From the IMG/VR virus record IMGVR_UViG_3300042475_003016, positions 1 to 56,489 of that record: a DNA stretch of 56,489 nt. The stretch is one strand, 5' to 3'. Positions within the stretch are counted from its first letter, which is position 1, and each line of letters opens with the position of its first letter. A model generated the notes under the pieces. That model saw nothing but the letters and a program-made list of their open reading frames with translations. It was not told where the DNA came from and did not search any database. Origin of the DNA: a virus. Taxonomy: Duplodnaviria > Caudoviricetes. Below are positions 17,051-48,093 of the stretch, one piece after another. The position numbers and the translations under genes were made by a program.

Positions 17051-17165
17051 TAGTCAAGACAGGATTCGAACCTGTAATAGGAGAAGCTGAGATTCAAACT
17101 CATCTTAACACTCATCTGTGACATCCCCTCGGGTTTCCCCTGCGTTACCATTCCGCCACCTGACT
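17051..17165 (-). ncRNA. tRNA-like element B (115 nt)
   Basis: AGTCAGG-TGGCGGAATGGTAACGC...ACAGGTTCGAATCCTGT-CTTGACT-A. Confidence 0.75.
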
Positions 17166-17301
17166 ATTTTAAAAATTAACTTACCAATTTTAACCCTATT
17201 CACGCTTCAGTTAAAATCCCAATTTCCATAGTGAAACATTCGTGGCAATTTTCACACCTTATTGCCTACTTCTTTTCGGCTCCTCAGTTAATTTTATTTT
17301 T

Positions 17302-17682: not shown

Positions 17683-17707
17683 AATTTTGTTTTAGTTGTT
17701 TAAAAAG

Positions 17708-17800
17708 CAGTCAGAAGAGGAATCGAACCTCTTTACAGGGAATTACCCGACATCCACGACCTTCCATCGGACTCGAACCGACCTTGTACCAAACCTGACT
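17708..17800 (-). ncRNA. tRNA-like element C (93 nt, two T-loop hairpins)
   Basis: AGTCAGG...TCGG-TTCGAGT-CCGA...AGAGG-TTCGATT-CCTCT-TCTGACT-G. Confidence 0.65.
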
Positions 17801-18780: not shown

Positions 18781-18802
18781 TCTTTATTTTTATTTTAAAA
18801 AG

Positions 18803-18879
18803 TAGTCAGGACAGGATTCGAACCTGTATCCACCCGTCATCTAACGGAGTGCCTCTGTCTCCAATTCAGCCACCTGACT
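18803..18879 (-). ncRNA. tRNA-like element E (77 nt, non-canonical anticodon loop)
   Basis: AGTCAGG-TGGCTGAATTGG...CCGT-TAGATG-ACGG...ACAGGTTCGAATCCTGT-CCTGACT-A. Confidence 0.7.
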
Positions 18880-35030: not shown

Positions 35031-35579
35031 TCATATGATTTGATTTAATATTTTTTCAACTGTTTTATCATCAACATATATTGATTCATACTTAACCTCA
35101 TATGAATTCAACATATCTTTTATTTCTTTATCAATCATTTTTGATTCTTCTAATGTCTGAAATCTCTCACCCCCATCATAAGATGAATTTAAATTTCGTT
35201 CCAGAAAATAATTTATATTGTCGTATCTATTAAATAGATTAAAAATAAAAGCATTAAATTCTTTGCCATATAAAGATGATATGAAATCTCCCTCTTTTTT
35301 ATATTTCTCCTTATAAACAAGAGCAAATAAGATGGGTGAATCACATACCACAAAATCAACCTTACCATAGGATCTCACAATATTCCTATGCTGGTTTGCT
35401 GTGATATAGAACTGATCCTTTATTGCTCCCATATTTTCATCCCAGGCTAGGTTCTTGGGAAATTCGTATGGATTGTCAGCACTAATGTGTTGCTTCTTTA
35501 ATTCATACATTAACCCACTAGCAATTGTGCTTTTGCCAGCACCAGGACCAGCAAATAAGTTTATTATTTTTGTTTGCAT
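35031..35579 (-). CDS. P-loop NTPase / nucleotide kinase (AAA_28-like)
   Basis: INLFAGPGAGKST, DSP, R.Q..EES..ID. Confidence 0.8.
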   Translation of the reverse strand: MQTKIINLFAGPGAGKSTIASGLMYELKKQHISADNPYEFPKNLAWDENMGAIKDQFYITANQHRNIVRSYGKVDFVVCDSPILFALVYKEKYKKEGDFISSLYGKEFNAFIFNLFNRYDNINYFLERNLNSSYDGGERFQTLEESKMIDKEIKDMLNSYEVKYESIYVDDKTVEKILNQII

Positions 35580-36316
35580 TATCTATATATTCTGTTAACC
35601 CCAGTTCTAATTATGCCCTGCTTTATTTTGCCAGGATATATCATTTCTTTTAAATCTTCATCTGAATACTCTTCTAATGGTGTATTATATATACTTAACC
35701 ATCTACCAACTTTCAATCCTTTTGGTAATGAGGCTATTTTTGTATCATCCAATAATAATTCACCCCAAACTTCCAATCCTTCAGGTAAAGAAGTAATTGC
35801 TGATCCAGTTAAATCTAAATTACCCCAAACCATTATTTTTTTTGGTAATGAAGTTAATTTTTTGCAATTACTTAAATATAAATCATCATGTATTTCCAAT
35901 CCTTCTGGTAATGAGGTTAATTCCGTACAACCATTTAGGATTAATTCACCACCAACATCCAAATTTTCAGGTAATGATGTTATTTTTGTAGATGCTAAAT
36001 TCAAACGACCCCCAACTTGTAATCCATCTGGTAAGGAGGTTATATTTGTTTGAGCCAATTCTAAATTCATAGAAACATACAAATCTTCTGGTAAAGAAGT
36101 TAATTGTTTGCAACGATACAAATCCAAAGTCCCAAAAACCATCAATCCCTCTGGTAAGGAGGTTATATTTGAGTTTTCTAAATCCAAATCAGCCTTAATA
36201 GTTAATTCATCCTCTGTTAGGGGCTCATTATTTAATAACTTCCATTTGAATGGTTTATTTTTATTATCATTCTTTTCAAGAAAATCAATTATATTCTTTA
36301 TTGTTTCTTTTTCCAT
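35579..36316 (-). CDS. LRR protein, array A (8 repeats)
   Basis: ITSLPEGL.V.G.L.L repeats with conserved caps. Confidence 0.85.
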   Translation of the reverse strand: MEKETIKNIIDFLEKNDNKNKPFKWKLLNNEPLTEDELTIKADLDLENSNITSLPEGLMVFGTLDLYRCKQLTSLPEDLYVSMNLELAQTNITSLPDGLQVGGRLNLASTKITSLPENLDVGGELILNGCTELTSLPEGLEIHDDLYLSNCKKLTSLPKKIMVWGNLDLTGSAITSLPEGLEVWGELLLDDTKIASLPKGLKVGRWLSIYNTPLEEYSDEDLKEMIYPGKIKQGIIRTGVNRIYR

Positions 36317-36723
36317 TATTTAAATATTTCTCCTTCTATAAATCCAGGTTTAATCATCTCTATTAATTCGTCATCTGAAAGTTTTGCTAATGGAGTATCT
36401 GTAATAATTAAATTTCCCCCAACTTTCAACCCTTCTGGTAATGATTTTATATCTGAATGGGTTAATGATAAATAACCCCCAATTTCCAAGCCTTTTGGTA
36501 AAAATTTAAAAATATAACAACCATCTAAATCCAAATTGCCCTCAACTTTTAATCCTTCTGGTAATGAGGTTATTTTTGTATATTGTAAAAGCAAATTACC
36601 TTTAACTTTTAAGTCTTCTTTTGAAAATGGGATATTATTTTCCAATTTCCATATAAATGGTGCTTTTATATTATCATTCTTTTCAAGGAAATTAAATATA
36701 TTCTTTAATGCTTCTTTTTTCAT
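36316..36723 (-). CDS. LRR protein, array A (3 repeats)
   Basis: Same repeat and caps. Confidence 0.85.
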   Translation of the reverse strand: MKKEALKNIFNFLEKNDNIKAPFIWKLENNIPFSKEDLKVKGNLLLQYTKITSLPEGLKVEGNLDLDGCYIFKFLPKGLEIGGYLSLTHSDIKSLPEGLKVGGNLIITDTPLAKLSDDELIEMIKPGFIEGEIFK

Positions 36724-37253
36724 CCTCCTCTATATATTGTCCATTCTATAAATCCAGGTTTAATCATTTCTCTTAATTCATCATCTGTGTATTTTTGTAA
36801 TTTTGTGCCCCTTATGTTTAAATTCCAACCAACTTCTAACCCTTTTGGTAATAAAGTTATTTCTTTACAATATGATAAATCCAAACTTCCCCCAATACTT
36901 AATCCTTCTGGCAATGATTCTATGTCTGACTGTGCTAAAGATAAAAAACCATTAACTTGTAAGTCTTTTGGTAATGAGGTTATTTTTGTACCAGCTAAAG
37001 ATAAAAAACCCCCAACCTTCAAGCCTTCTGGTAAGGTTCTTATTTCTGAACCATCTAAATCCAAATCACCTCTAACCTTCAAGCCTTCTGGTAAGGTTCT
37101 TATTTTTGTATCACTTAAATTCAAATTACCTCTAACATCCAAATCTTCTTCTGTAAAAGGTTCTTTATTTAATAATTTCCATTTAATAGATGATTTATTA
37201 TCTTCTTTTTCAAGAAAATGCATTATGCTCTTTAATGTTTTTTTATCCATCAT
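36720..37253 (-). CDS. LRR protein, array A (5 repeats)
   Basis: Same repeat and caps. Confidence 0.85.
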   Translation of the reverse strand: MMDKKTLKSIMHFLEKEDNKSSIKWKLLNKEPFTEEDLDVRGNLNLSDTKIRTLPEGLKVRGDLDLDGSEIRTLPEGLKVGGFLSLAGTKITSLPKDLQVNGFLSLAQSDIESLPEGLSIGGSLDLSYCKEITLLPKGLEVGWNLNIRGTKLQKYTDDELREMIKPGFIEWTIYRGG

Positions 37254-37780
37254 CTATATATTTTTCCTTTTATAAACCCCGGTTTAATCATTTCTTTTAA
37301 TTCAGCATCTGAAAGTTTTTTTAATGGAGTATGTCTAATAATTAATGGTCCCAAAACTTTTAACCCTTTTGGTAATAATGTTAAATTTGTGCAAGCTTCT
37401 AATTGTAAAGTATTAACTTTCAATCCTTCTGGTAAGGATGTTAAACTTGTGCAACCATATAAATATAAATTACCCCCAACATCCAAGTCTTCTGGTAATG
37501 AGGTTAATTCTGTGCAATTTGATAAATCCAAATCAATCCCAACACTTAATCCTTCTGGTAATGATGTTATTTTTGAATAATCTAAATCCAAATTACCCTT
37601 AACTTTTAATCCTTTTGGTAATGAGGTTATTTTTGAAAAATGCAAATTCAAATTACCCTTAAAATTTAATTCTTCTTTTGTTAATGACATCTCACTCATA
37701 AATTTCCCCATAAGTGGTGTTTTTATCTTATCATTCTTTTCAAGGAAATTAAATATGTTCTTTAATGCTTCTTTTTCCAT
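37250..37780 (-). CDS. LRR protein, array A (5 repeats)
   Basis: Same repeat and caps. Confidence 0.85.
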   Translation of the reverse strand: MEKEALKNIFNFLEKNDKIKTPLMGKFMSEMSLTKEELNFKGNLNLHFSKITSLPKGLKVKGNLDLDYSKITSLPEGLSVGIDLDLSNCTELTSLPEDLDVGGNLYLYGCTSLTSLPEGLKVNTLQLEACTNLTLLPKGLKVLGPLIIRHTPLKKLSDAELKEMIKPGFIKGKIYR

Positions 37781-38307
37781 TATCTAATTATATCTCCTTT
37801 TATATATCCAGGTTTAATCATTTCTCTTAATTCATCATCTGAATATTTTAATAATGACATATCCCTAATAAATAAATCACCCCCAACTTGCAAACCTTTT
37901 GGTAAGTTATTTACTTCTGATTGAGATAGAAATAACCTGCCCCCAACTTGCAAACCTTTTGGTAATGATTCTACAGAGGAATCTTCCAAATCCAAATAAC
38001 CACCAACTTGCAAATCTTCTGGTAATGATGTTATTTTTGTTTTTCTTAAATTCAAATAACCCCCAACTTTCAATCCATCTGGTAATGATTCTACAGAAGA
38101 ATCTTCCAAATCCAAATTACCACCAACTTTTAATCCTTTTGGGAATGTAGGTATATTGGTGAATCGTAAATATAAATGACCATTAACATTTAAATCTTCC
38201 TCTGTTATTGGTTCATTATTATTATTTAATTTCCAAATAAGTGGTGTTTTTATGTTATCATTCTTTTCAAGGAAATTAAATATGTTCTTTAATGTTTCTT
38301 TATTCAT
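37780..38307 (-). CDS. LRR protein, array A (5 repeats)
   Basis: Same repeat and caps. Confidence 0.85.
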   Translation of the reverse strand: MNKETLKNIFNFLEKNDNIKTPLIWKLNNNNEPITEEDLNVNGHLYLRFTNIPTFPKGLKVGGNLDLEDSSVESLPDGLKVGGYLNLRKTKITSLPEDLQVGGYLDLEDSSVESLPKGLQVGGRLFLSQSEVNNLPKGLQVGGDLFIRDMSLLKYSDDELREMIKPGYIKGDIIR

Positions 38308-38723
38308 CCTCTGTATATATCTCCTTTTAAAAATCCTGGTTTAACCATTTCTCTTAATTCTTCATCTGTGTATTCTTTTAATGGTGATTCATAAATGTAT
38401 AAAATACCACCAACCTTCAAGCCTTTTGGTAATGAATTTAATTCTGTATACATTAAATTAAAATCACCCCCAACTTCCAATCCTTCTGGTAATGATTCTA
38501 TTTTTGAAGAACCTAAAGACATCCATCCCCCAACTTTCAATCCTTCTGGTAATGATGTTATTTCTGAAGACTTTAAGTCCAAATTACCTTTAACATTCAA
38601 ATATTCTTTATTTAATGGCTCATTAAATGTCAACTTCCATTTTAACCCATATTTGTGTTTAGATTTTTTCCCCTCCTCTTCTTCAAGGAAATTAAATATG
38701 TTCTTTAATGTTTCTTTTTCCAT
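38304..38723 (-). CDS. LRR protein, array A (3 repeats)
   Basis: Same repeat and caps; TATTTATA upstream at 38737-38744. Confidence 0.85.
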   Translation of the reverse strand: MEKETLKNIFNFLEEEEGKKSKHKYGLKWKLTFNEPLNKEYLNVKGNLDLKSSEITSLPEGLKVGGWMSLGSSKIESLPEGLEVGGDFNLMYTELNSLPKGLKVGGILYIYESPLKEYTDEELREMVKPGFLKGDIYRG

Positions 38724-38736
38724 TATGTAATTATAC

Positions 38737-38744
38737 TATAAATA
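38737..38744 (-). promoter_or_regulatory. Putative phage late-promoter motif TATTTATA (representative copy)
   Basis: On the coding strand 10-50 nt upstream of many genes: 109, 3475, 4563, 11267, 19350, 26719, 30363, 31243, 33978, 38737, 52531, 54690. Confidence 0.65.
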
Positions 38745-38761
38745 TAAGGAATAAGAAAAAT

Positions 38762-39859
38762 TTAATCCTTCTGTTTTAACAAGAATTTGTTGCTAATTGC
38801 TTTGAATGAAATAACACTATCAGTTGATCTAATAACAATACCCTCACGCTCAAATTTATCATTCAATTCAGATTTGCCTTCAGCATATTTTAGCAAATCT
38901 TCAATAGTTTCTGGTAAGAATGAACCAGAAATAAAACTCAACACAGGAACCATGTCAAACCCCATTCTTGCAATCATTAATGCTAATTCGCTATAATCCA
39001 TTTTTGACCTTTTGTCAATATCAAAACCAGAAAAGAACTTGACAGTTTGTCCTTTTATCTTATATGGATTACCCTGGATGCCCTCGCCAATCAACTCCCC
39101 TTGGATGGCAACATTAGCATTTAATGCCCTTAATTTTTCCTCAATACCCATTTCTCTTGCTACCTTCCAGTAAGTATTATCCTCACTTTCAAGCAAATCC
39201 AAATTTCTTGAACAAACCCCAAACTCACCATTATTAATATAGAATGTTGCAGATGATCCATCCAATTTTTCTGTGATATAAAAATCAAAATGATTTTTTC
39301 TCCAATCAATATATTCGTCTTTCAAATTCTGAACCCTCTCCTCATCTGTTTTTGATAAAAATGATGGAAATTGACCCTTAACCAATCCTTGTAAGTTGGC
39401 TGGGATTGGCTTATCATATTTAATAATTCCCAAAAGATTTGTAACATCAACCCCAGGCTCAAGAAGTAATGCATTATCATAAGGTCCAAGTTGGAATTGC
39501 TCACCCCAAGGTTGCTTTGAAATGCCAACCACCATCTCTGGGTCAGTTTTTGAGTTTAATACCTCAAGTTTCAACAACAAGCCTTGGGATAATTGACCCC
39601 TTAATCTAATTGTCTTTAATCTGAATCCCTCTTGATCCAACATCTTGGTATAAGATGATTTTCGGAGAAATTCAAACTCTTCCCTTATTGGTAAAAAAGA
39701 ATCAATCTCACAATATACAACCAATTCACCAATAAAGTAATTCTGGTCTTTTGCAACCACAACTGACCAGCCATCAACAATGGCCAATTCAATATTATCA
39801 GCCCCCTCAATTTGCTTAATCTCATCTATTTTTCTTATTGTTGCTAGTTTTCTTGACAT
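38762..39859 (-). CDS. RNA ligase, DRB0094 (Rnl5) family
   Basis: N-terminal OB-like RKLATI...GAD.IE, LRGQLSQG, KTDEER.QN, TEKLDGSS, QGE..G, EG.V, FK.ISN; start MSRK at 39859. Confidence 0.9.
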   Translation of the reverse strand: MSRKLATIRKIDEIKQIEGADNIELAIVDGWSVVVAKDQNYFIGELVVYCEIDSFLPIREEFEFLRKSSYTKMLDQEGFRLKTIRLRGQLSQGLLLKLEVLNSKTDPEMVVGISKQPWGEQFQLGPYDNALLLEPGVDVTNLLGIIKYDKPIPANLQGLVKGQFPSFLSKTDEERVQNLKDEYIDWRKNHFDFYITEKLDGSSATFYINNGEFGVCSRNLDLLESEDNTYWKVAREMGIEEKLRALNANVAIQGELIGEGIQGNPYKIKGQTVKFFSGFDIDKRSKMDYSELALMIARMGFDMVPVLSFISGSFLPETIEDLLKYAEGKSELNDKFEREGIVIRSTDSVISFKAISNKFLLKQKD

Positions 39860-39936
39860 TTTATTTTTTTTTTGATGCAAGTGTAATACAATTTTTTTAA
39901 CCCCCACCCAGAAATTTGGGCAGGGGCATTTCATAA

Positions 39937-40203
39937 CTAATCCACTAAACTTTCCATCTTTGATTTGTTAATTAAATGGTCTGTGATTGTATATTCTTCT
40001 ACTTTTGTCAAGATGACACATTTGGATAAAATCTTATAAGGGACATTGACTAGGAAGTCATTCCCATTAAAAAATTGAAGAGTATTCTTCAACTGCAAGG
40101 ATCCGTGGATTGCTTTCAAAAACAACTTGAACTGGATTTTATCCGCAAAGTTCTCATTGATTAAATTTTCGTTCTTGTAAATTACTCTAATGTTATGTGC
40201 CAT
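39937..40203 (-). CDS. Hypothetical protein
   Basis: 88 aa ORF after the -7 promoter at 40226. Confidence 0.65.
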   Translation of the reverse strand: MAHNIRVIYKNENLINENFADKIQFKLFLKAIHGSLQLKNTLQFFNGNDFLVNVPYKILSKCVILTKVEEYTITDHLINKSKMESLVD

Positions 40204-40378
40204 GTTGTTTGTTTTTTTGTTGATGCAAATTTAAAGCAAAGGAATGAATTATCCAAATCTTTTTTCCATTATTTTTTGGGTTAGGCTATTGTCAAAGCCA
40301 CACATAAGCCATTCTTATCACAAGCCTGGTTATCAGCAACTTGTGGAAGTGTGGTTCACCCATTGATTCTTTTAAACA

Positions 40379-40714
40379 CTAAATTACATACTCGGGGATT
40401 CTTTCAATCGAATCGTCTATTGTATCCAACAAACCATCACAATATACATCTTTGATTTCTTTTTTGACCTTACCCAAAGTATTCACCAAATAAACATCAT
40501 ATAAATCGCTACCATTCAAGGTAATCAGAACCCATCCCTTATGCCTACGAGCAGACACTCTCAATAATAGACCTTTGTTGCTCAAATTTATCATTTTTGA
40601 TACCCCAAAGGACCAGAACACTGGTTGGTTGTAAGTGAGCCAACCCATAGTCTCGGTTGGATTAAATTCTAATTTGTTTTCAAGCAAAGGTTTGATGGCT
40701 GTTATGATTTTCAT
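40379..40714 (-). CDS. Hypothetical protein, paralog of 40783-41118
   Basis: NKGLLL.VSA..HKG.VLITLN..DLY motif shared. Confidence 0.7.
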   Translation of the reverse strand: MKIITAIKPLLENKLEFNPTETMGWLTYNQPVFWSFGVSKMINLSNKGLLLRVSARRHKGWVLITLNGSDLYDVYLVNTLGKVKKEIKDVYCDGLLDTIDDSIERIPEYVI

Positions 40715-40715
40715 A

Positions 40716-41180
40716 TTGTTTGGTTTTTGTTATTTTGATGATGCAAAGTTAATATACCCCAATCACATTTCCAAATGTTTTTTCAAACCATTTTATTTAT
40801 TTGAATTGAGTAATTAAGTGCCTGTATTAAATTTTCCCCACTCACATCTTGTATTTCTCCTTTAACAGAATTACCCAAATTATCTAACAAATAGATAGTG
40901 TATAAAGTGTTATCATCATTTAAGGTAATTAAAACCAAACCTTTATGTTTCATAGCAGATACTTTTAATAATAATCCCTTATTATCTGCATTCATTACTT
41001 TTGTTAACCCAATTGAGAAACAGAACAACTTATCTTGTTTTAAGATTTTTAGTGGTACAGATGGATTAAATTCAATCTTATCTGCAAGCAAGTTTGTAAT
41101 TTTTTCGCTTAATGACATCTTGTTTGGTTTTTGTTAATTTGATGATGCAAAGTTAATATACCCCAATCACATTTCCAAAT
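40716..41180. repeat. Duplicated 61-bp promoter / leader
   Basis: 40716-40776 and 41120-41180 differ at one position. Confidence 0.85.
40783..41118 (-). CDS. Hypothetical protein, paralog of 40379-40714
   Basis: Shared motif and duplicated promoter. Confidence 0.7.
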   Translation of the reverse strand: MSLSEKITNLLADKIEFNPSVPLKILKQDKLFCFSIGLTKVMNADNKGLLLKVSAMKHKGLVLITLNDDNTLYTIYLLDNLGNSVKGEIQDVSGENLIQALNYSIQINKMV

Positions 41181-42234
41181 ATCTTTTCAAAAAAAGTGAA
41201 TTATTATTTAAAGCCTTTGCAAAATCTGGCTTCACCAAATCCCATATGTATTTTTCATAATCCCTCCCATCAAGCATAGAAAATAATATGGAAGGATAAG
41301 CATATTCTTTTGTCCTTATTGCAAAATCTTTTCTGGTTAAACATTCTTCTTCAAGCCTTGCAAAGATTTTTAAGTGATCCTCTTTTATCCTGGAAAAATC
41401 CTCATTTAACCCCCTTACAGTCTCTCTAACCCACCCATCAAACTCATCTGGTATTCTATCCAACAATTCAGAGAAATTGCCCCCAGACCTCAATACGTCC
41501 CAAATAGAAGTAGTGGATATGTTGGTTAATATTCTATGTAATCTAACATACTCTTCTCCCTTTATTTTCATTCTCATTCCAGATTTGAACCTTATGACAA
41601 ATCCTTCAGCATCATTAGGTATGATGGCTTTTAATTTAGCAAAATCATTAACCCCATCATATTTATTAACCAAATCAAACCCTTCAAGAGCCTCCAATTC
41701 AGTTCTATCAACCTCAATATTATTTGCAGTATTAAATGCCCCCAATAAAACTAACCCTTCATAATCCCCATAATTTACAACTATCACATTCCGTTTGTCT
41801 ATTATCTCAAATACGTAAGTGTTTCTAATATCCAATTTTTCCATAGGATATTTAACAAACATATGCCTTCCCATTTTTGCTTGGTCAGATGTGAAAGACC
41901 CCCTAGTTGCTATGTGCCACTCCCCAGCATAGAAAAATACTATACCACAAGATCCATCCATTTTCTCAAAAACATCAAAAGATTCATTTGGTATTTCATC
42001 AGCAGAATATTCCTCATAATTTTTGAACTTTGGAAACGGCCTCGCAACAACCTCCCCGGAATTGTCAGTAACAAGACCCCTGCAAGCCATGGTTATCTCA
42101 TCCCAGAAACCACCATATTGTACTTCCCTGGAATAGTTCCATATCACCAAAGGCAATTCTGGGTGTTCATTCTTAACCAACAACCCATCACCAACATATC
42201 TATCCAACAAAGCCAAATCCATTTTCATATTCAT
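41167..42234 (-). CDS. T4 Rnl1-like RNA ligase
   Basis: CRGLV, RPFPKF.N, EKMDGS, ATRGSF.S, FEII, EGFV, K.K..EY..LH motifs. Confidence 0.9.
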   Translation of the reverse strand: MNMKMDLALLDRYVGDGLLVKNEHPELPLVIWNYSREVQYGGFWDEITMACRGLVTDNSGEVVARPFPKFKNYEEYSADEIPNESFDVFEKMDGSCGIVFFYAGEWHIATRGSFTSDQAKMGRHMFVKYPMEKLDIRNTYVFEIIDKRNVIVVNYGDYEGLVLLGAFNTANNIEVDRTELEALEGFDLVNKYDGVNDFAKLKAIIPNDAEGFVIRFKSGMRMKIKGEEYVRLHRILTNISTTSIWDVLRSGGNFSELLDRIPDEFDGWVRETVRGLNEDFSRIKEDHLKIFARLEEECLTRKDFAIRTKEYAYPSILFSMLDGRDYEKYIWDLVKPDFAKALNNNSLFLKRYLEM

Positions 42235-42299
42235 TATTTATTTCTGCAAAGATAATCCATTTTATCAAACCCACAAATATTTATTGAAAAAAAAAAATA

Positions 42300-43178
42300 A
42301 TGATAAAATATGTTTTAATCCTATCAGTTCTATTACAAGGCTGTGCAACATTAACCCCATCCAAAAAAATGGCGGTAAAAGAATTTAGTATGACAACCAA
42401 AGACTTACCAGTATATGGTGAAAAGTTCTCACAAGGCATATCAGATGTAAGACTTAAAAGAAGCGTATATTTTGCTAACACCCTAATAACACCAGAAATC
42501 CATATAAATGAACTAGATAGAATACACGCACAAGAAAATATAGATGTAAAAAATAAAAAATTATTTAATGCATCATTCAGAGTATTAGGATCCTACGCCA
42601 ATCTGCTAATGATTATATCATCAAATAATTATGTAAATGATTATGATTCAAATGTCAAACAATTAAGCGATGATATCCAGTACTTTACATCTTTAACAAA
42701 TAATTTTGAAAATTCTTCTAAAATTATTAGGATATCTGAAAAAATTGGATTACTTATTGGTAAATATTATATTAGTTATAACCAGAACAAAGAATTAACT
42801 AACATAATAAATACATCAGACACCTTAATAACAATATTATCAAATAATATGATAGAATATTTGGAATCTGAATCATTAAAAACTATCATTGAAAATGAAA
42901 ATAATATGGTAAAAAGAAATTACCTAAGTTATTTACAACAAAAACCAAATGCCACAACAATTAACGATCTTGAATATATCCAGTTAAAAAGAAATTTAGA
43001 TAATATTAATCTTTTAAGGCGTAGTTTAATTGGGGGTATAACAAATTTAAAAGAAGCTCATACCATTTTAGCAAAACAAATGAACAGCAAGAATTCAAAT
43101 ATAGATAATATAAATCAAATAAAAGATTTGATGAAAACATTTACAGAAATAAACATTATTTCAAAACAAATTAAATAG
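42300..43178 (+). CDS. Putative lipoprotein
   Basis: Lipobox LQGC after a hydrophobic signal; helical body. Confidence 0.7.
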   Translation: MIKYVLILSVLLQGCATLTPSKKMAVKEFSMTTKDLPVYGEKFSQGISDVRLKRSVYFANTLITPEIHINELDRIHAQENIDVKNKKLFNASFRVLGSYANLLMIISSNNYVNDYDSNVKQLSDDIQYFTSLTNNFENSSKIIRISEKIGLLIGKYYISYNQNKELTNIINTSDTLITILSNNMIEYLESESLKTIIENENNMVKRNYLSYLQQKPNATTINDLEYIQLKRNLDNINLLRRSLIGGITNLKEAHTILAKQMNSKNSNIDNINQIKDLMKTFTEINIISKQIK

Positions 43179-43179
43179 T

Positions 43180-43476
43180 ATGCAAAGTTTATTGAAAGAA
43201 ATACATGATTCAATTTCTCTGGTAGAAACCAATAGAACTGATAATAATTTGTCAAAAATTGAAAAGGCTAAATTAGAGGAAACTTTAATAACCTTAACCA
43301 ATATAGAACGAGCCATTATCAATGAAACAAATACTAATATGCAATCAAAGTTATCTGCATCAACACCAGCACTTACAGAACTTATAAATGATATGGCCTC
43401 ATCCACTGAAAAACTTGATGAACTAAATAGCAAATTGAGGAAAATAATTAATATAATTAACTTTTTAAAATTCTAA
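43180..43476 (+). CDS. Hypothetical coiled-coil protein
   Basis: 98 aa ORF coupled to the lipoprotein gene. Confidence 0.6.
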   Translation: MQSLLKEIHDSISLVETNRTDNNLSKIEKAKLEETLITLTNIERAIINETNTNMQSKLSASTPALTELINDMASSTEKLDELNSKLRKIINIINFLKF

Positions 43477-43477
43477 T

Positions 43478-43726
43478 ATGAAAATTGAAATTATTGGCTT
43501 CATTGCCACAATACTAACCATTGTATCTTTCACATTTAAAAACATACTAACTATTAGGATAGTTAATGTATTAGGGTCATTTGTTTGGCTTGTGTATGGC
43601 TTTTACACAAAAGACCACCCAGTAATCATTGTGAATTTAAGTGTCATCATAATCCATATATGGGGCATATTCTTTTTACTAAAAGATAAAATCTTTCCCC
43701 CAGCAAACAAACGACAACTTCTTTAG
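43478..43726 (+). CDS. Small 3-TM membrane protein (YgjV / PQ-loop-like)
   Basis: IG..A...SF...IR.VN..G...WLVYG...PVI.VN. Confidence 0.7.
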   Translation: MKIEIIGFIATILTIVSFTFKNILTIRIVNVLGSFVWLVYGFYTKDHPVIIVNLSVIIIHIWGIFFLLKDKIFPPANKRQLL

Positions 43727-43736
43727 ATGGGCTTTT

Positions 43737-43764
43737 CACAGAGGGAAATTGATTTCCCTCTGTG
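43737..43764. terminator. Perfect hairpin between convergent genes
   Basis: CACAGAGGGAAAT-TG-ATTTCCCTCTGTG. Confidence 0.65.
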
Positions 43765-43799
43765 GGCATAAAATACTGATTGTTATGTGGTTAGGGGGC

Positions 43800-44213
43800 T
43801 TAAAGGTAATGAATTCTCTTTAAATACCCATCATCTCCAACCATATTTCTTAATTCACCTTCACTATATTCACCTAATGGTGATGTACCAATATATAAAG
43901 TGCCACCAACTTTCAATCCTTTAGGTAATGAATATAATTGACTACAATCTTCTACAATCAAATTAAATCTAACTATTAACCCTTCTGGTAATGAACTTAT
44001 ATTTTCACAAAAAGTTAAGTTCAAATCACCTCTAACTATTAATCCTTCTGGTAATGATTCTATGTTTGAGTATGTTAAATCCAAATCACCATTAATATGT
44101 AAATCATCTTCTGTTAATGGTTCATTATTTAACCATTTCCACATAAATGGTGCTCTTATATTCTCCTCATTTTCAAGGAATTTGAATATGCTTCTTATTG
44201 TGTTTTTTTCCAT
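43800..44213 (-). CDS. LRR protein, array B (3 repeats)
   Basis: SLPEGL.V.G.L.L repeats with caps. Confidence 0.85.
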   Translation of the reverse strand: MEKNTIRSIFKFLENEENIRAPFMWKWLNNEPLTEDDLHINGDLDLTYSNIESLPEGLIVRGDLNLTFCENISSLPEGLIVRFNLIVEDCSQLYSLPKGLKVGGTLYIGTSPLGEYSEGELRNMVGDDGYLKRIHYL

Positions 44214-44821
44214 TATTTATATATTTTTCCTTCTATAAATCCAGGTTTAATCATATCTCTTATTTCATCATCTGATAAGTTTGTAAAATTAGTTCTTTGA
44301 ATATGTAAACTACCACCAACATATAATCCTTTTGGTAATGATTTTAAACCCCAACTCTCAATTAACCATAAACTACCCCCAACTTCCAATCCTTCTGGTA
44401 AAGATGTTAAATTTTCGCAATGAGATAAATTTAACCTACCACCAACTTTAAATCCCTTTGGTAATGATGTTAAACTTGTGCATGTGCCTAAATTCAAATC
44501 ACCTTCAGCTTTCAAGGTTTTTGGTAATGAAGTTAATTCTCTGGACCAATATAAATCCAATTCACCTCCAACTTTTAATCCTTCTGGTAATGATTTTATT
44601 TTTGAGCCTATTAAAATTAAATCACCTCCAACTTTTAATCCTTCTGGTAATGATTTTATTTTTAAGCCTTTTAAATTTAAATCACCATTCACATTTAATT
44701 CTTCCTTTGTAATGGATTTATTAAAAAACAATTTCCACTTTAGGCTTCTGCTGTCTTTATGTTTTTTGTTTTCCTTTTCTTCAAGGAAATCAAATATGTT
44801 TTTTAATGTTTCTTTTTTCAT
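44213..44821 (-). CDS. LRR protein, array B (6 repeats)
   Basis: Same repeat and caps. Confidence 0.85.
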   Translation of the reverse strand: MKKETLKNIFDFLEEKENKKHKDSRSLKWKLFFNKSITKEELNVNGDLNLKGLKIKSLPEGLKVGGDLILIGSKIKSLPEGLKVGGELDLYWSRELTSLPKTLKAEGDLNLGTCTSLTSLPKGFKVGGRLNLSHCENLTSLPEGLEVGGSLWLIESWGLKSLPKGLYVGGSLHIQRTNFTNLSDDEIRDMIKPGFIEGKIYK

Positions 44822-45405
44822 GATCTACGTATTGTTCCTTTTATAAAGCCAGGCTCAATCATATCTTTTATTTGCTTGTCTGTGTATTTTTCTAATTCTG
44901 TCCAGCCTATATATAAATCCCAACCAACTTCCAAACCTTTTGGTAATGATTCTATTTTTCTAGTATAAATATATAAATTTATGCCAACCTTTAAGCCTTT
45001 TGGTAATGAAGTTATATTTGTTTTAGTTAAATCCAAACTACCACCAACTTCCAATCCTTCTGGTAATGAAGCTATATTTGTTTCATCAATAAACAAATTT
45101 TCACCAACTTTTAATCCTTCTGGTAATGAGGTTATTTTAGAACCTGATATGTTCAAAGTTCCACCAACTTCCAAACCTTCTGGTATTGATTCTATTGCTG
45201 AATGATACAACGATAAATCACCTTTAACTTTCAAATTATTAGGCAATGATTTAAACCTTGAGTATTCTAAAAGCAAATGCCCATCAATTGTTAAATCATC
45301 TTCTGTTAAGGGCTCTCCAATAGCATGTTTCCACAAAAATGGCACATTATGATTTTCATTTTCTTTAAGAAATTCAAATATCTTTTTTAGTGTTTCTTTT
45401 TTCAT
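44818..45405 (-). CDS. LRR protein, array B (6 repeats)
   Basis: Same repeat and caps. Confidence 0.85.
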   Translation of the reverse strand: MKKETLKKIFEFLKENENHNVPFLWKHAIGEPLTEDDLTIDGHLLLEYSRFKSLPNNLKVKGDLSLYHSAIESIPEGLEVGGTLNISGSKITSLPEGLKVGENLFIDETNIASLPEGLEVGGSLDLTKTNITSLPKGLKVGINLYIYTRKIESLPKGLEVGWDLYIGWTELEKYTDKQIKDMIEPGFIKGTIRRS

Positions 45406-45890
45406 TATTCTCTTATTATTTTTCTATCAATATAGCCATCAACATCATCTGTTGGTTTAATCATTTTTATCAATTCTTCATCAGAAAAATTAACTAAAGG
45501 TGTATAACGAATAAACAAAAAACCATCAACTTTTAATCCTTTTGGTAAGGAACTTATATTTGTTTTTGCTATAGATAAGTTCCCCCCAACATATAATCCT
45601 TCTGGCAAGGAAGTTAAATTATCACAATAACCTAAATATAAGTTTTTGCTAACATATAAATCTTTTGGTAATGATTTTATTTCTGACCCAAATAAACTCA
45701 AATCACCATTAACATACAGTCCTTCTGGTAATGATTTTACTTTTGAATATTCCATATTTATATCACCATTAACAATTAAATCATCTTGTTCAATAGGTTC
45801 ATTATTCAATATCTTCCAGAAAATTGGTGTGCTTCTATTTTCCTCCTTTTCAAGGAATTTGAATATGCTTCTTAATGTGTCTTTTATCAT
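45405..45890 (-). CDS. LRR protein, array B (4 repeats)
   Basis: Same repeat and caps. Confidence 0.85.
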   Translation of the reverse strand: MIKDTLRSIFKFLEKEENRSTPIFWKILNNEPIEQDDLIVNGDINMEYSKVKSLPEGLYVNGDLSLFGSEIKSLPKDLYVSKNLYLGYCDNLTSLPEGLYVGGNLSIAKTNISSLPKGLKVDGFLFIRYTPLVNFSDEELIKMIKPTDDVDGYIDRKIIRE

Positions 45891-46357
45891 GTTCTATATA
45901 TTTCTCCCCCTATAAATCCAGGTTTAATCATATCTCTTATTTCATCATCTGATAAGTTTGTAAAATTAGTTCTGAAAATATATAAATCACCACCAACATG
46001 TAAACCTTTTGGTAATGAGGTTATAAGCCAACACCCAATTAACCATAAACTATCCCCAACTTCCAAACCTTCTGGTAATGTTCTTATATCTGAATATGAT
46101 AAATCTAAAGTAGCCCCAACTTCCAATCCTTCTGGTAAGGAGGTTATTATTGACCCTAATAAATTCAAATTATCTCCAACTTTCAAACCTTTTGGTAATT
46201 GTGTTATTTTTGAATCAGTCAAATTCAAATTGCCTTCAATATTTAATTCATCATCTGTTAATGGTTCATTATTAATTAATTTCCAGACAATTGGTGTGTT
46301 TCTATTATCCTCATTTTCAAGGAATTTGAATATGCTTCTTATTGTTCCTTTTTCCAT
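45887..46357 (-). CDS. LRR protein, array B (4 repeats)
   Basis: Same repeat and caps. Confidence 0.85.
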   Translation of the reverse strand: MEKGTIRSIFKFLENEDNRNTPIVWKLINNEPLTDDELNIEGNLNLTDSKITQLPKGLKVGDNLNLLGSIITSLPEGLEVGATLDLSYSDIRTLPEGLEVGDSLWLIGCWLITSLPKGLHVGGDLYIFRTNFTNLSDDEIRDMIKPGFIGGEIYRT

Positions 46358-47139
46358 TATCGTTTTATTTTACCTTTTATAAAACCAGGATAAATCATTT
46401 TTTTTAATTTAGTATTGGTATGCGTTTTTAAATCTGAATACCCCAACATTAAATCACCCTCAACTTCCAATCCTTTTGGTAGGGATTTTATATTGGTATA
46501 TTGTAAATATAAATCCCTCCCAACTTTTAATCCTTCTGGTAATGATTTTAAACCTACTGCATTAAATAAATTTAAATCACCCCCAACTTCCAATCCTTCT
46601 GGTAATGACTTTAATTTACCACAATAAGATAAATTCAACTCACCCCCAACTTTTAAATCATCTGGTAATGTTTCTATATCTAGGTGTCGCAAAAACAAAT
46701 CCCCCCCAACTTCTAGGCCTTTCGGTAGTGATGTTATTTCTGTGTTTAATAAAATTAAAAACCCATCAACTTTTAATCCTTCTGGTAAATATTTTATTTT
46801 TGATAGCATTAAATTTAAAGCCCCAACTTCCAATCCTCTTGGTAGTGATGTTATATTTTCACAACGATTTAACGCTAGTATCCCACCAACTTTCAACCTT
46901 TCTGGCAATTTTTTTATTTTTGAATTGGTCAAATTCAAATCACCACCAACTTTTAATCCTTCTGGTAGTGAATTTATATTTGAACTGCGTAAATCTAAAT
47001 CACCCTCCACATTTAATTCTTCCTTTGTAAATGGTTCATTAAAAAACAATTTCCACTTTATACTTCCATTGTCTTTGTGTTCTTTGTTTTCTTCTTTTTT
47101 TAAGAAGTCAAATATGTTTTTTAATGTTTCTCTTTCCAT
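46357..47139 (-). CDS. LRR protein, array B (9 repeats)
   Basis: Same repeat and caps. Confidence 0.85.
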   Translation of the reverse strand: MERETLKNIFDFLKKEENKEHKDNGSIKWKLFFNEPFTKEELNVEGDLDLRSSNINSLPEGLKVGGDLNLTNSKIKKLPERLKVGGILALNRCENITSLPRGLEVGALNLMLSKIKYLPEGLKVDGFLILLNTEITSLPKGLEVGGDLFLRHLDIETLPDDLKVGGELNLSYCGKLKSLPEGLEVGGDLNLFNAVGLKSLPEGLKVGRDLYLQYTNIKSLPKGLEVEGDLMLGYSDLKTHTNTKLKKMIYPGFIKGKIKR

Positions 47140-48071: not shown

Positions 48072-48093
48072 TTTTATTTTTTAGATAAATATC

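What the first reader, a model, noticed from the sequence alone, without database searches (positions are those of the whole stretch)
35579..47139. Two tandem arrays of 12 capped LRR genes with variable repeat number, resembling a variable-binder repertoire
Seen: six genes at 35579-38723 and six at 43800-47139, translationally coupled. Each has an N-cap (MEKETLKNIF.FLE...WKL.NNEP.T.E.L), 3-9 repeats of 20-21 aa (I.SLPEGL.VGG.L.L) and a C-cap (T.L..YSD.EL..MIKPGFI.G.I). The framework DNA (AATCCTTCTGGTAATGA) is strongly conserved while residues around the L.L strand vary. Established: the concave LRR strand is the usual ligand-binding surface. Inference: a diversified set of phage binders, for example inhibitors of host defence proteins, analogous in design to VLR-type repertoires. 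Array A follows the putative late motif.
Basis: partly seen in the sequence, partly recalled or inferred. Interest (0 to 1): 0.75.

Follow-up and report, generated by a model that had tools for sequence, protein, structure and literature searches.

The report
Phage arrays of small LRR binders
An uncultured freshwater giant relative of phage T4 carries twelve back-to-back genes for small leucine-rich-repeat proteins whose likely binding face differs from gene to gene and whose gene set changes between close relatives, so they look like an inherited panel of protein binders with unknown targets.

Summary
Twelve complete minus-strand genes (six at 35579-38723, six at 43800-47139) overlap each neighbour by 1 or 4 bases. 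Each has a family-specific N-cap, 3-9 repeats of 20/21 residues and a C-cap. The repeat is a bacterial-type 20-residue LRR. The closest solved relative is Vibrio FlrP (E 9.8e-33). The N-cap occurs only at the start of small proteins (122 clusters, none over 240 aa) and in none of 37 bacterial loci.

Variation peaks at repeat positions 10, 12, 14 and 15, which flank the conserved L.L strand. Several framework codons are conserved even at synonymous sites.

Close relatives have flanking genes 92-100% identical but different LRR gene sets, so the arrays are not static. A 90%-complete relative has 41 such genes.

Between orthologues dN/dS is 0.22-0.60, against 0.13 in flanking genes. It exceeds 1 only among paralogous repeats, by a rough estimate.

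My reading is a germline panel of cytoplasmic binders that evolves by gene birth, death and recombination. The anti-defence role, the VLR-like mechanism and the "late" promoter are not shown.

This scan has already flagged the same family on other DNA. No structure model could be made.

The parts
38304..38723 (-). A6, first gene of array A, 139 aa, 3 LP repeats
   Evidence: ORF and translation. N-cap HMM E 8e-20. 96% identical orthologue in L011.
37780..38307 (-). A5, 175 aa, 5 LP repeats, all of 20 aa
   Evidence: Absent between A6 and A4 in L011.
37250..37780 (-). A4, 176 aa, 5 LP repeats
   Evidence: Orthologues at 85-87% identity in L010 and L011.
36720..37253 (-). A3, 177 aa, 5 LP repeats
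36316..36723 (-). A2, 135 aa, 3 LP repeats
   Evidence: Orthologues at 90-92% identity in L015 and L025.
35579..36316 (-). A1, last gene of array A, 245 aa, 8 LP repeats
   Evidence: Orthologues at 89-91% identity in L015 and L025.
46357..47139 (-). B6, first LRR gene of array B, 260 aa, 9 LP repeats; overlaps the stop of the upstream gene by 1 base
   Evidence: Orthologues at 85-88% identity in L015 and L020.
45887..46357 (-). B5, 156 aa, 4 LP repeats
   Evidence: Its C-cap is 88% identical to that of B2 but its N-cap only 43%.
45405..45890 (-). B4, 161 aa, 4 LP repeats
   Evidence: Orthologues at 87-93% identity.
44818..45405 (-). B3, 195 aa, 6 LP repeats
   Evidence: No orthologue in L015 or L020.
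44213..44821 (-). B2, 202 aa, 6 LP repeats
   Evidence: No orthologue in L015 or L020. A 182-aa protein that is 90% identical exists in metagenomes (P0001).
43800..44213 (-). B1, last gene of array B, 137 aa, 3 LP repeats, divergent C-cap
38737..38745 (-). Promoter-like motif ATATTTATA, 13 nt before the A6 start codon
   Evidence: The same motif or ATATTTATC lies before the first array gene in L010, L013, L014, L023, L002, L004 and L015.
47139..48071 (-). Non-LRR gene (310 aa, weak match to the C45/AAT family) that heads the array B transcription unit
   Evidence: Pfam PF03417 E 2.5e-7. The same order, this gene then the B6 orthologue, is seen in L015 and L020.
48084..48092 (-). Motif variant ATATTTATC, 12 nt before the start of gene 47139-48071
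   Evidence: Sequence read.
43737..43764 (.). 12-bp-stem inverted repeat between the B1 stop and the convergent + strand gene; possibly a terminator
   Evidence: Sequence read. Its function is inferred.

Best explanation
The two arrays are part of a large, phage-specific multigene family of small soluble LRR proteins. I read it as a germline-encoded panel of binding proteins in a T4-like jumbo phage of freshwater Bacteroidota.

Each gene makes a short LRR solenoid of about 4-10 turns, closed by a family-specific N-cap and C-cap. The side chains that flank the conserved L.L strand (repeat positions 10, 12, 14, 15) differ from repeat to repeat and from paralogue to paralogue, and would form the ligand surface.

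The genes of an array are co-transcribed from a phage promoter-like motif and translated by start/stop overlap. There is no signal peptide, so the proteins stay in the infected cell unless they are packaged.

The panel changes by duplication, deletion and replacement of whole genes, by gain or loss of 20-residue repeats, and by recombination in the conserved caps and framework DNA. Close relatives therefore carry different sets.

The most likely job is binding proteins of the host during infection (host takeover or counter-defence), one target or target variant per paralogue.

Shown here: gene structure, family, variable positions, turnover and the mosaic caps of B2, B5 and B6.
Inferred: the fold in detail, that the variable face binds ligands, the cytoplasmic location, and above all the kind of target.
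For: - Gene structure and repeats.
- LRR kinship: a profile of 21 family members hits solved Vibrio FlrP at E 9.8e-33, then designed LRRs and the LRR domains of SlrP, SspH1 and IpaH. FlrP is a beta-solenoid LRR that binds other proteins (passages read).
- Phage-specific caps: the N-cap profile finds 122 clusters among 1.84 billion representatives. All matches start within the first 14 residues of proteins of 30-240 aa. None of 37 bacterial loci that hold the LRR core has the N-cap. Atlas look-alike clusters are 85-100% viral in 8 of 9 listed rows; the 345-aa cluster is 50%.
- Variable face: entropy is 2.9-3.6 bits at positions 10, 12, 14, 15 in the window and 3.2-3.9 bits in 289 distinct repeats. 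Among all pairs of 48 window repeats dN/dS is 0.21 for framework, 0.85 for other exposed and 1.65 for strand-flanking positions.
- Family size: 41 N-cap matches in at least 8 clusters of a 270-kb, 90%-complete relative, and 23 in a 107-kb fragment.
- Turnover: L015 is syntenic to window 48468-26502 at 83-96% nucleotide identity with flanking proteins 92-100% identical. It has one 134-aa gene in place of B3+B2, three divergent genes (59-74%) where the window has A6-A3, and two extra LRR genes. L011 lacks A5, L010 starts with A4, L025 goes from the ligase straight to A2. L002 against L004 is 8 against 12 genes between flanks 85-89% identical, and L005 against L006 is 6 against 10.
- Mosaicism: B2 shares its N-cap with B6 (72%) but its C-cap with B5 (88%).
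- Faster protein evolution than the neighbours: dN/dS is 0.22-0.60 in LRR gene classes against 0.13 in 13 flanking-gene comparisons.
- No hydrophobic N-terminus.
- Circumstantial context: the arrays sit among RNA ligases, tRNAs, methylases and NUDIX/phosphoesterase genes. A distant array lies 1.7 kb from a Tad3 (Thoeris inhibitor) homologue. The only cultured-phage homologue lies in the early region of a lambdoid phage, between the repressor and exo/RecT.
Against: - No ligand, partner or phenotype is known for any member.
- No structural model could be made, so assigning the variable positions to one face rests on general LRR knowledge and on homology to FlrP.
- High variability at the x positions of LxLxx is normal for any LRR protein and does not by itself prove a diversified binding function.
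- Between orthologues dN/dS at these positions is 0.60, below 1. It does not differ clearly from other exposed positions (63 changes per 676 sites against 80 per 1056, z about 1.3 by my arithmetic). In the first set of 6 orthologue pairs it was 0.31.
- The among-repeat value of 1.65 comes from Nei-Gojobori counts on non-independent, near-saturated pairs in an AT-rich genome.
- None of the 12 matches PADLOC, and Pfam and PHROGs give no functional name.
- Isoelectric points range from 4.5 to 9.2, so there is no common charge logic.
- The neighbourhood argument for counter-defence is weak, because the flanks differ between phage lineages.
Confidence: 0.5

Rival explanations
1. Head-packaged, injected 'internal proteins'. 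As in T-even phages, a diverse set of proteins shares a conserved N-terminal segment that targets them into the prohead. They would enter the next cell with the DNA and act at once, for example against restriction. This rival is about delivery and is compatible with a binder or counter-defence role.
For: - The phages are T4-like: Gp23-type capsid genes lie 3-4 kb from the arrays in L005 and L006, and there is a gp63-like RNA ligase in the window.
- T-even internal proteins are described as a highly diverse set of defence proteins sharing only a capsid targeting sequence (passages of PMC3012670).
- All 12 proteins share an N-terminal 39-43 residues found nowhere else.
- In more distant phages the same LRR core and C-cap carry other N-terminal leaders (L008, L009). 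The L009 leader is shared with non-LRR proteins: 15 genes in that 282-kb record, control 0. That suggests leaders are modules with a job of their own.
Against: - The conserved N-region runs without a break into the first LRR strand, as a structural cap would.
- The Glu at position 14 that could mark a protease site is present in 10 of 12 and is preceded by F-L. That does not match the L/I-x-E rule as I recall it (recalled, not tested).
- The promoter-like motif before the arrays is not the type found before the capsid gene in relatives.
- There are no proteomic data.
Confidence: 0.15
2. Virion-displayed host-recognition modules. The conserved caps would dock each LRR onto a fibre, baseplate or capsid site, and the variable face would bind different cell-surface structures. 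This would give a multivalent or quickly changeable host range.
For: - LRR or beta-helix domains occur on tail-associated fibres of a jumbo phage (passages of PMC13742148).
- Turnover between close relatives is typical of receptor-binding genes.
- Some arrays lie near structural genes: the capsid gene in L005/L006 and an S74 chaperone-type tail fibre gene in L007.
Against: - The proteins are small (15-30 kDa), have no recognisable anchoring or trimerisation domain and no fibre-like region.
- About 41 copies per genome in at least 8 clusters is far more than known multi-receptor phages carry (recalled).
- In the window the arrays lie among nucleic-acid metabolism genes, not morphogenesis genes.
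- The upstream motif differs from that of the capsid gene in relatives.
Confidence: 0.1
3. Interchangeable substrate adaptors for one common enzyme or chaperone, for example a phage or host protease or the phage Hsp70. The conserved caps would dock on the common partner while the LRR face selects the client, as the LRR domain of NEL ubiquitin ligases selects substrates.
For: - Longer bacterial proteins join the same repeat type to NEL ligase, DnaJ and other domains.
- Both caps stay recognisable across the family, although their dN/dS between orthologues (0.54) is about as high as at exposed repeat positions.
- The window encodes an Hsp70, and a ClpP gene lies beside the L009 array.
- Array B is always headed by the same C45/AAT-like gene in the window, L015 and L020.
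Against: - No partner gene is conserved next to the arrays across lineages.
- Caps are needed structurally in any LRR protein, so their conservation needs no extra partner.
- The caps are themselves swapped and diverge quickly between orthologues (dN/dS 0.54).
Confidence: 0.1
4. A gene family that expands and contracts in hyperplastic regions mainly because its repeated, conserved DNA recombines easily. Individual copies would contribute little or nothing, so the apparent repertoire is a by-product of drift.
For: - Gene number varies widely, from 6 to 12 per array and up to 41 per genome.
- dN/dS is relaxed relative to the neighbours.
- T4-type genomes are known to shuffle accessory genes in hyperplastic regions (PMC2839356 and PMC4122927; listing and start of abstract only).
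Against: - All 12 reading frames are intact, with caps and start/stop coupling preserved.
- Framework positions are under strong purifying selection (dN/dS 0.08-0.22).
- In 5 of 12 orthologue comparisons the strand-flanking residues are unchanged or differ at a single site (0-1 nonsynonymous differences) while the caps differ.
- A phage that devotes 11.5% of this fragment to the family is unlikely to carry it neutrally.
Confidence: 0.08

Closest known systems
Vibrio FlrP (PDB 8Z5U, 8Z5W, 8Z60; bioRxiv 10.64898/2025.12.04.692373, passages read)
   Same: Small single-domain protein (199 aa) made of the same 20-residue repeat (LP.G..V.G.L.L....I..). It is the best solved match to the family profile at E 9.8e-33. 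It is a beta-solenoid LRR that works by binding other proteins.
   Different: FlrP is a bacterial, Sec-exported periplasmic component of the polar flagellar motor. It has its own head and tail segments and lacks the phage N-cap: none of 37 bacterial loci matches the N-cap HMM. Nothing suggests it occurs in arrays or varies.
LRR domains of NEL-type E3 ligase effectors (SlrP, SspH1/2, IpaH) and Xanthomonas XopL/XopAC
   Same: Short bacterial-type LRRs with an LP motif that select the binding partner. There are weak profile matches to their LRR parts only. Longer bacterial proteins join this same repeat type to NEL domains.
   Different: The phage proteins have no NEL or other catalytic domain and no secretion signal. 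Scores are far below family cut-offs (for example 40.6 bits against 1113 for SlrP). The phage proteins end in a 25-residue cap.
Variable lymphocyte receptors of jawless vertebrates
   Same: The design is shared: an N-cap, a variable number of LRR modules, a C-cap, and diversity concentrated at strand positions.
   Different: VLR diversity is made somatically from cap-less cassettes around one incomplete gene, with a cytidine deaminase (established knowledge, recalled). Here every gene is complete and inherited, no deaminase was seen in the window, and the repeats are 20/21 rather than 24 residues.
Hyperplastic regions and internal-protein loci of T4-type phages (PMC3012670, passages; PMC2839356 and PMC4122927, listing and start of abstract)
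   Same: T4-like genome. Accessory genes are exchanged between close relatives while the flanks stay conserved. A diverse protein set shares a conserved N-terminal segment.
   Different: Inside the arrays there is no intergenic promoter/stem-loop cassette at which to recombine, because the genes overlap. Recombination must use the conserved caps and framework. Packaging of these proteins is not shown. All members here belong to one fold family, unlike the unrelated proteins of T4 regions.
Tandem LRR multigene families that evolve by birth-and-death and unequal crossing-over (plant NLR/R-gene clusters), and repeat-protein expansions of giant viruses such as the FNIP/FGxxFN LRR family of CroV (PMC9525666, listing and start of abstract)
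   Same: Many paralogues per genome, arrays with variable copy number, mosaic genes, and variable solvent-exposed strand residues.
   Different: Those are eukaryotic or eukaryote-virus families with other repeat classes and extra domains. This family is found in bacteriophages, and its members consist of the LRR module and its caps alone.

Membership tests
Leucine-rich repeat superfamily, short bacterial-type class | Tandem repeats of 20-30 residues carrying L.L..(N/C/S/T).(L/I)..L(P) | tested here: met
   49 internal repeats of 20/21 aa (one of 19) with L11, L13, C/S/T16-17, I/L19, L1 and P2 conserved. The first Leu of the canonical LxxLxL is replaced by Gly, with Val one position earlier.
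Leucine-rich repeat superfamily, short bacterial-type class | Significant sequence kinship to a protein with a solved LRR structure | tested here: met
   Family profile against PDB sequences: FlrP E 9.8e-33, SlrP 4.7e-12, SspH1 3.3e-10; 46 distinct sequences at E up to 0.01.
Leucine-rich repeat superfamily, short bacterial-type class | Pfam LRR model above its gathering score | tested here: not met
   The best scores are LRR_1 at 20.1 and 19.6 bits against a cut-off of 20.6, in 2 of 12 proteins. The other 10 have no LRR_1 match at E up to 0.1; three of them (A4, A5, B2) have sub-threshold matches to other LRR models (LRR_EndoS, LRR_14). Single short repeats score poorly, so this does not outweigh the PDB profile result.
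Leucine-rich repeat superfamily, short bacterial-type class | Curved solenoid with the L.L strands forming one (concave) sheet | not tested
The fold is inferred from kinship to FlrP.
VLR-type somatically assembled repertoire | One incomplete receptor gene flanked by cap-less donor cassettes | tested here: not met
   All 12 units are complete ORFs with ATG, both caps and a stop codon.
VLR-type somatically assembled repertoire | AID/APOBEC-like cytidine deaminase | tested here: not met
   No deaminase among the 54 window ORFs of 88 aa or more that were scanned against Pfam, 52 of them at least 100 aa. The record is only 16% complete.
Diversity-generating retroelement target | Reverse transcriptase plus a template repeat, with variation confined to template adenines | tested here: not met
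   No reverse transcriptase in the window. Framework codons rich in adenine (ATA, TCA, TTA, CCA, GAA) are conserved. The bias towards NNT codons at positions 10 and 12 (47 and 46 of 61) follows from the preferred residues D, N, Y, S and F.
T4-type internal proteins with a capsid targeting sequence | T4-like phage | tested here: met
   Gp23-family capsid genes in L005 and L006 at E 1.7e-73. gp63-like RNA ligase in the window.
T4-type internal proteins with a capsid targeting sequence | Short N-terminal targeting peptide removed by the prohead protease; protein present in the head | not testable with these tools
   A conserved N-terminal segment exists, but it is 39-43 aa long and continuous with the LRR. 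A candidate Glu is present in 10 of 12. No proteomic data are available.
NEL E3 ligase effectors (IpaH/SspH/SlrP) | C-terminal NEL catalytic domain | tested here: not met
   The proteins end about 25 residues after the last repeat, and Pfam finds no PF14496.
PeSL-mediated shuffling in T4 hyperplastic regions | Promoter-plus-stem-loop cassettes between the exchanged genes | tested here: not met
   No intergenic DNA inside the arrays. Repeated promoter cassettes do exist before three small genes between the arrays: 40194-40283, 40712-40801 and 41116-41205, at 62-89% identity.

The most novel reading that the evidence does not exclude
These jumbo phages keep a virus-encoded, immune-like repertoire: some 40 inherited LRR binders per genome. 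Each would be tuned to one variant of a host defence or surface-to-cytoplasm sensor protein, and the set is re-dealt between strains by recombination. The framework DNA would be held constant even at synonymous sites because that homology is what lets repeats and genes be exchanged. On this reading the family is a counter-defence arsenal built on one scaffold, the viral mirror image of LRR-based immune receptors.
Probability: 0.2. Interest if true: 0.85.

Novelty: new variant of a known kind. Interest (0 to 1): 0.6.

Why it matters
Phages are known to carry many unrelated small anti-host proteins. A single binding scaffold expanded to dozens of copies and reshuffled between close relatives is the strategy of cellular immune receptors and of giant eukaryotic viruses, and I found no description of it for bacteriophages. 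My literature searches found no paper on this family. The one review of LRRs in double-stranded DNA viruses that I saw cited (Arch Virol 2021) is not held and may bear on this.

If the targets are host defence proteins, the family would be a ready-made library of natural inhibitors and a sensitive marker of phage-host arms races in lakes. If they are packaged or displayed on the virion, it would be a new way to vary host range.

The proteins are also compact, cysteine-poor, cap-closed 20-residue LRRs with a clearly defined variable face, which makes them attractive as a designable binder scaffold.

Tried and rejected
- **Structure prediction.** There is therefore no model, no fold search, and no mapping of variable residues on a structure.
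- **Read-level variation.** Only assembled contigs were available. In three lake metagenome runs the arrays are broken into short contigs. Most of the listed joints within and between arrays A and B have sides of 20-31 letters and a few reach 36-41, at 90% likeness. The tool warns that such joints often come from repeats or other organisms. One joint (37296 to 37870, skipping 573 bases) appears in three runs, but with a side of 31. I do not count these as evidence of variants.
- **Transcription.** RNA-library contigs lie on 38720-38941, 44202-44373 and 46633-46886, but DNA carry-over cannot be excluded, so transcription is not shown.
- **DGR.** Rejected: no reverse transcriptase, and framework adenines are conserved.
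- **Antisense genes.** The long + strand ORFs across the LRR genes (for example 35574-36053 and 36787-37275) recur in relatives. They are explained by the stop-free antisense reading of the repeated framework codons. They also fail to explain the synonymous conservation, because the conserved third bases are synonymous in that frame too (my reading of the codons).
- **T4-type late promoter.** TATAAATA at 38737-38744 is on the + strand, antisense to the genes.
- **DNA mimicry.** Isoelectric points run from 4.5 to 9.2, so this is not a general property.
- **Defence-system membership.** None of the 12 matches PADLOC.
- **Recent exchange inside this genome.** The best paralogous blocks are only about 81% identical over 300 nt.
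- **Synteny with the more distant arrays (L002-L009).** No shared flanking genes beyond methylases.
- **Cultured relatives.** Megablast finds nothing. tblastn with B6 finds only Edwardsiella phage Edno5, which has the core and C-cap but not the N-cap.

Full report
**What is in the sequence**

The window is a 56,489-base virus record rated 16% complete. It has about 30% G+C, nine tRNA genes and nearly all genes on the minus strand.

At the stated coordinates there are twelve complete minus-strand ORFs, all starting with ATG. A1-A6 lie at 35579-38723 and B1-B6 at 43800-47139. Neighbouring genes overlap by 1 or 4 bases at every junction. B6 overlaps the stop of a non-LRR gene (47139-48071), and A1 overlaps the start of the next gene (35031-35579).

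Each protein has:
- a 39-43-residue N-terminal region (consensus);
- 3-9 LP-anchored repeats, with 30 internal units of 20 aa, 18 of 21 aa and 1 of 19 aa;
- a C-terminal cap of about 25 residues.

The arrays take 6,485 of 56,489 bases, or 11.5% (coordinates).

**What family it is**

Pfam gives only sub-threshold LRR matches. PHROGs gives weak matches to families of unknown function. NCBIfam matches only the LRR parts of SlrP, XopL, XopAC and SspH2, far below their cut-offs, in 6 of 12 proteins.

A profile of A5 with 20 relatives (alignment A1) matches solved structures clearly. The best is chain 8z5u_0 at E 9.8e-33, followed by designed LRR proteins, SlrP, SspH1 and IpaH. 8Z5U is Vibrio FlrP, a 21.5-kDa Sec-exported beta-solenoid LRR that binds the rod of the polar flagellar motor (passages read). 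So the repeat is a genuine short bacterial-type LRR. The same repeat type is widespread in bacteria and is often joined to NEL ligase, DnaJ or other domains.

What sets the phage family apart is its caps:
- A profile of the 12 N-caps finds 122 clusters among 1.84 billion representatives (48 at E up to 1e-10).
- Every match starts within the first 14 residues of a protein of 30-240 aa.
- None of 37 bacterial genome loci that hold the LRR core matches the N-cap HMM.
- Atlas look-alike clusters are overwhelmingly viral, and one has 1,437 members.
- A search with B2 finds 2,090 proteins at E up to 0.001 in the length range searched. The 120 listed carry no name but 'hypothetical protein'.
- In cultured phages only Edwardsiella phage Edno5 has a homologue. 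It has the core and C-cap but no N-cap, and lies in the early region between the repressor and exo/RecT.

**Where the variation lies**

I number the repeat L1 P2 E3 G4 L5 x6 V7 G8 G9 x10 L11 x12 L13 x14 x15 (C16) x17 x18 I19 x20 S21.

Entropy in the 49 internal window repeats is highest at positions 14 (3.60), 15 (3.52), 10 (3.04) and 12 (2.88). It is 2.3-2.9 bits at 6, 17, 18 and 20, and at most 0.7 bits at the L/P/V framework. The same order holds for 289 distinct repeats from 100 distinct family proteins: 3.85, 3.44, 3.23 and 3.26 bits. For that count, duplicates of L002 and L005 were dropped and only genes with an N-cap HMM E below 1e-8 were used.

By established LRR knowledge, the x positions around L.L are the exposed residues of the strand that lines the concave face. 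I could not confirm this on a model. High variability there is expected of any LRR protein, so on its own it is weak evidence.

**An unexpected DNA-level pattern**

Several framework codons are conserved at synonymous sites, position by position:

| Position | Codon | Window repeats | Background share |
|---|---|---|---|
| Val7 | GTT | 57 of 57 | 0.57 |
| Ile19 | ATA | 39 of 40 | 0.34 |
| Glu3 | GAA | 32 of 33 | 0.60 |
| Pro2 | CCA | 56 of 61 | 0.60 |
| Ser21 | TCA | 39 of 49 | 0.34 |
| Gly4 | GGA | 33 of 50 | 0.22 |

Leu5, Leu11 and Gly8 use mixed codons.

The pattern holds in 99 genes of 19 other loci whose proteins are only about 45-55% identical to the window's: GTT 381 of 389, ATA 329 of 354. 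General codon bias does not explain it, because ATA and GGA are not the preferred codons. A DGR does not explain it either, because framework adenines are conserved and there is no reverse transcriptase.

I can offer only two candidate explanations: rapid repeat turnover with fast change at the variable codons, or second-order selection for recombination homology.

**Selection**

Among all pairs of 48 window repeats (the 19-aa unit dropped), Nei-Gojobori dN/dS is 0.21 for framework positions, 0.85 for other exposed positions and 1.65 for positions 10, 12, 14 and 15. These pairs are not independent and are near saturation, so this is suggestive only.

Between orthologues the picture is different:
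- I made 12 LRR comparisons of the window with L015, L020, L010, L011 and L025. I chose orthologues of at least 78% identity, and four genes are used twice.
- dN/dS is 0.54 for caps, 0.22 for framework, 0.45 for other exposed positions and 0.60 for strand-flanking positions.
- In 13 comparisons of flanking genes it is 0.13.
- An earlier set of 6 independent pairs from more distant phages gave 0.77, 0.08, 0.80 and 0.31 in the same order.

So the genes evolve several times faster than their neighbours, but positive selection at the putative binding face is not shown between orthologues. In 5 of the 12 comparisons the strand-flanking residues are unchanged or differ at a single site (0-1 nonsynonymous differences) while the caps differ at 5-18 nonsynonymous sites. 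This fits cap replacement by recombination and conservation of each paralogue's surface.

Mosaicism is visible inside the window. B2 shares its N-cap with B6 (72%) but its C-cap with B5 (88%, against 34% with B6). There has been no very recent exchange inside this genome: the best paralogous blocks are about 81% identical over 300 nt.

**The arrays are not static**

Related jumbo-phage contigs also carry arrays: L002 has 8 genes, L004 12, L005 6, L006 10 and L007 7. More distant forms with other N-terminal leaders occur in L008 and L009. L002 and L004 share flanks at 85-89% nucleotide identity but differ by four genes, and L005 and L006 likewise differ.

Close relatives of this very phage were found in metagenome contigs.

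- **L015** is collinear with window 48468-26502 at 83-96% identity, with flanking proteins 92-100% identical.
  - Its array B is B6' (88%), B5' (90%), B4' (93%), a 134-aa gene only about 50% like any window gene, and B1' (82%). B3 and B2 are replaced by that one gene.
  - Its array A starts with three genes only 59-74% like A6, A5 and A3, then A2' (92%), A1' (91%) and one extra gene.
  - A further 243-aa LRR gene sits where the window has the small gene 40783-41118.
- **L020** has B6', the 134-aa gene, B4' and B1'.
- **Next to an RNA ligase that is 92-98% identical**, the first array gene is A6 in L011 (followed directly by A4, with no A5), A4 in L010, an A3-like gene in L014 and L023, other genes in L013, L015 and L020, and A2 in L025.

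Whole relatives show the scale. There are 41 N-cap matches in at least 8 clusters on both strands of a 270-kb, 90%-complete record. There are 23 in a 107-kb fragment, and none in the 282-kb record that uses another leader.

**Genome context**

The phages are T4-like. Gp23-family capsid genes lie near the arrays in L005 and L006, and a family B polymerase lies near the L002 array. In the window, a gp63-like RNA ligase and a second RNA ligase lie between the arrays.

The host is probably a member of Bacteroidota:
- Boxes of the TAnnTTTG type precede several genes (the assignment of this box to Bacteroidota promoters is recalled).
- The best 80 bacterial relatives of the phage Hsp70 carry Bacteroidota names in 78 cases, at 63-73% identity.

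Near-identical DNA is held by lake and freshwater metagenome runs of 17 studies.

Array A, and the gene that heads array B, are each preceded by ATATTTATA or ATATTTATC, 12-13 nt before the start codon. There are 14 exact copies in the window against 5.8 expected, and 1 of 100 shuffles reaches 14. The motif recurs before the first array gene in relatives.

The motif is not evidence of late expression. On the coding strand it is the reverse complement of TATAAATA, and the capsid genes of L005 and L006 are preceded by AATAAATA-type boxes instead. The timing of expression is open.

**What it most likely does**

There is no signal peptide, no catalytic domain, no PADLOC match and no common charge (pI 4.5-9.2). 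What remains is a cap-closed LRR with a paralogue-specific face. That is a binder.

Several features point to proteins that meet a variable target in the host:
- the very large copy number;
- the turnover between strains;
- protein evolution faster than in neighbouring genes;
- placement among accessory genes such as RNA repair, tRNAs and methylases;
- a Tad3 homologue 1.7 kb from a distant array.

I put about 0.5 on 'inherited panel of intracellular binders of host proteins'. Within that, counter-defence is the leading but untested use.

The rivals are:
- head-packaged internal proteins, supported by the modular N-terminal leaders and the T-even precedent;
- virion-displayed recognition modules;
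- adaptors for a common enzyme or chaperone;
- largely neutral expansion.

**Comparison with known systems, and novelty**

By sequence the proteins are members of the LRR superfamily. They work most like other stand-alone LRR binders such as FlrP. They are not VLRs, DGR targets or NEL effectors, because defining features were tested and not met.

The evolutionary mode, birth and death plus recombination in a tandem LRR family, is familiar from plant R-gene clusters and from T4 hyperplastic regions. New here is the combination of a phage-only capped LRR family, dozens of copies per genome, strain-level reshuffling and nucleotide-level framework conservation.

Searches of the held literature found no description of the family. 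One review of LRRs in double-stranded DNA viruses is not held.

This scan has already flagged the same family in seven windows of five other genomes, with concordant readings: T4-like freshwater jumbo phage, ordinary recombination, FlrP as closest structure. My FlrP, T4-like and turnover results were obtained before I read those notes, and they agree.

**Limits**

- Selection estimates are simple counts without a recombination-aware codon model.
- Read-level data were contigs only.
- The window is a fragment, so the number of family members in this phage is a lower bound.

Noticed in passing
window 47139-48071 and 53477-54676; L009 9217-11646, 2073-2384, 14581-15554: A second N-terminal leader (MK.I.ITE.Q..LL) starts unrelated proteins. 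In the window it is on the C45/AAT-like gene that heads array B and on a 399-aa protein. In L009 it is on the LRR genes themselves and on non-LRR genes. A degenerate DNA pattern for it hits 15 gene starts in that 282-kb record (control 0) and 3 in the L002 record. Its function is unknown; it may be a targeting or docking module.
   Followed up: partly
window 40194-40283, 40712-40801, 41116-41205: Three copies (62-89% identical) of a roughly 90-nt upstream cassette with a TAnnTTTG-type box precede three small genes between the arrays. Two of these genes are 111-aa paralogues (40379-40714 and 40783-41118). The cassettes resemble the mobile promoter cassettes of T4 hyperplastic regions. In L015 one of these slots holds an extra LRR gene.
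   Followed up: partly
window 18802-18879 (-): ARAGORN reports a tRNA-like gene with a four-base anticodon (agat) and no assigned amino acid, among eight ordinary tRNAs.
   Followed up: no
window 1047-2963 (-): The phage encodes a full-length Hsp70/DnaK (Pfam E 9e-247). Its best 80 bacterial relatives carry Bacteroidota names in 78 cases, at 63-73% identity.
   Followed up: partly
window 35574-36053, 36787-37275, 46742-47176 (+) and others: Long antisense ORFs (up to 162 aa) run across the LRR genes and recur in relatives. They look like a by-product of repeated framework codons whose antisense reading has no stop, not like genes.
   Followed up: partly
window 42300-43726 (+): A three-gene + strand cassette sits between the arrays. 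It encodes a 292-aa protein with a lipoprotein-like start (LLQGC), a 98-aa protein and an 82-aa membrane protein with weak PQ-loop/MtN3 matches. It converges on array B at an inverted repeat.
   Followed up: no
window about 47960-48000, within gene 47139-48071: The protein has a TAHD TAHD TAHD tandem near its N-terminus. One lake-metagenome contig lacks 12 bases at 47977, which is one unit.
   Followed up: no
L009 16740-17324 and 15596-16330: A Tad3 (type I Thoeris inhibitor) homologue (E 3e-34) and a ClpP gene lie just beyond the distant LRR array.
   Followed up: no
L007 276-5104: Five consecutive genes all match the window's C5 cytosine methyltransferase at 45-61% identity, forming a tandem methylase array upstream of that phage's LRR array.
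   Followed up: no
L002 15580-19572: A 1,330-aa protein with a glycine-rich domain contains an internally repeated stretch (15793-17752, copies 70-76% identical) about 4 kb from the LRR array.
   Followed up: no
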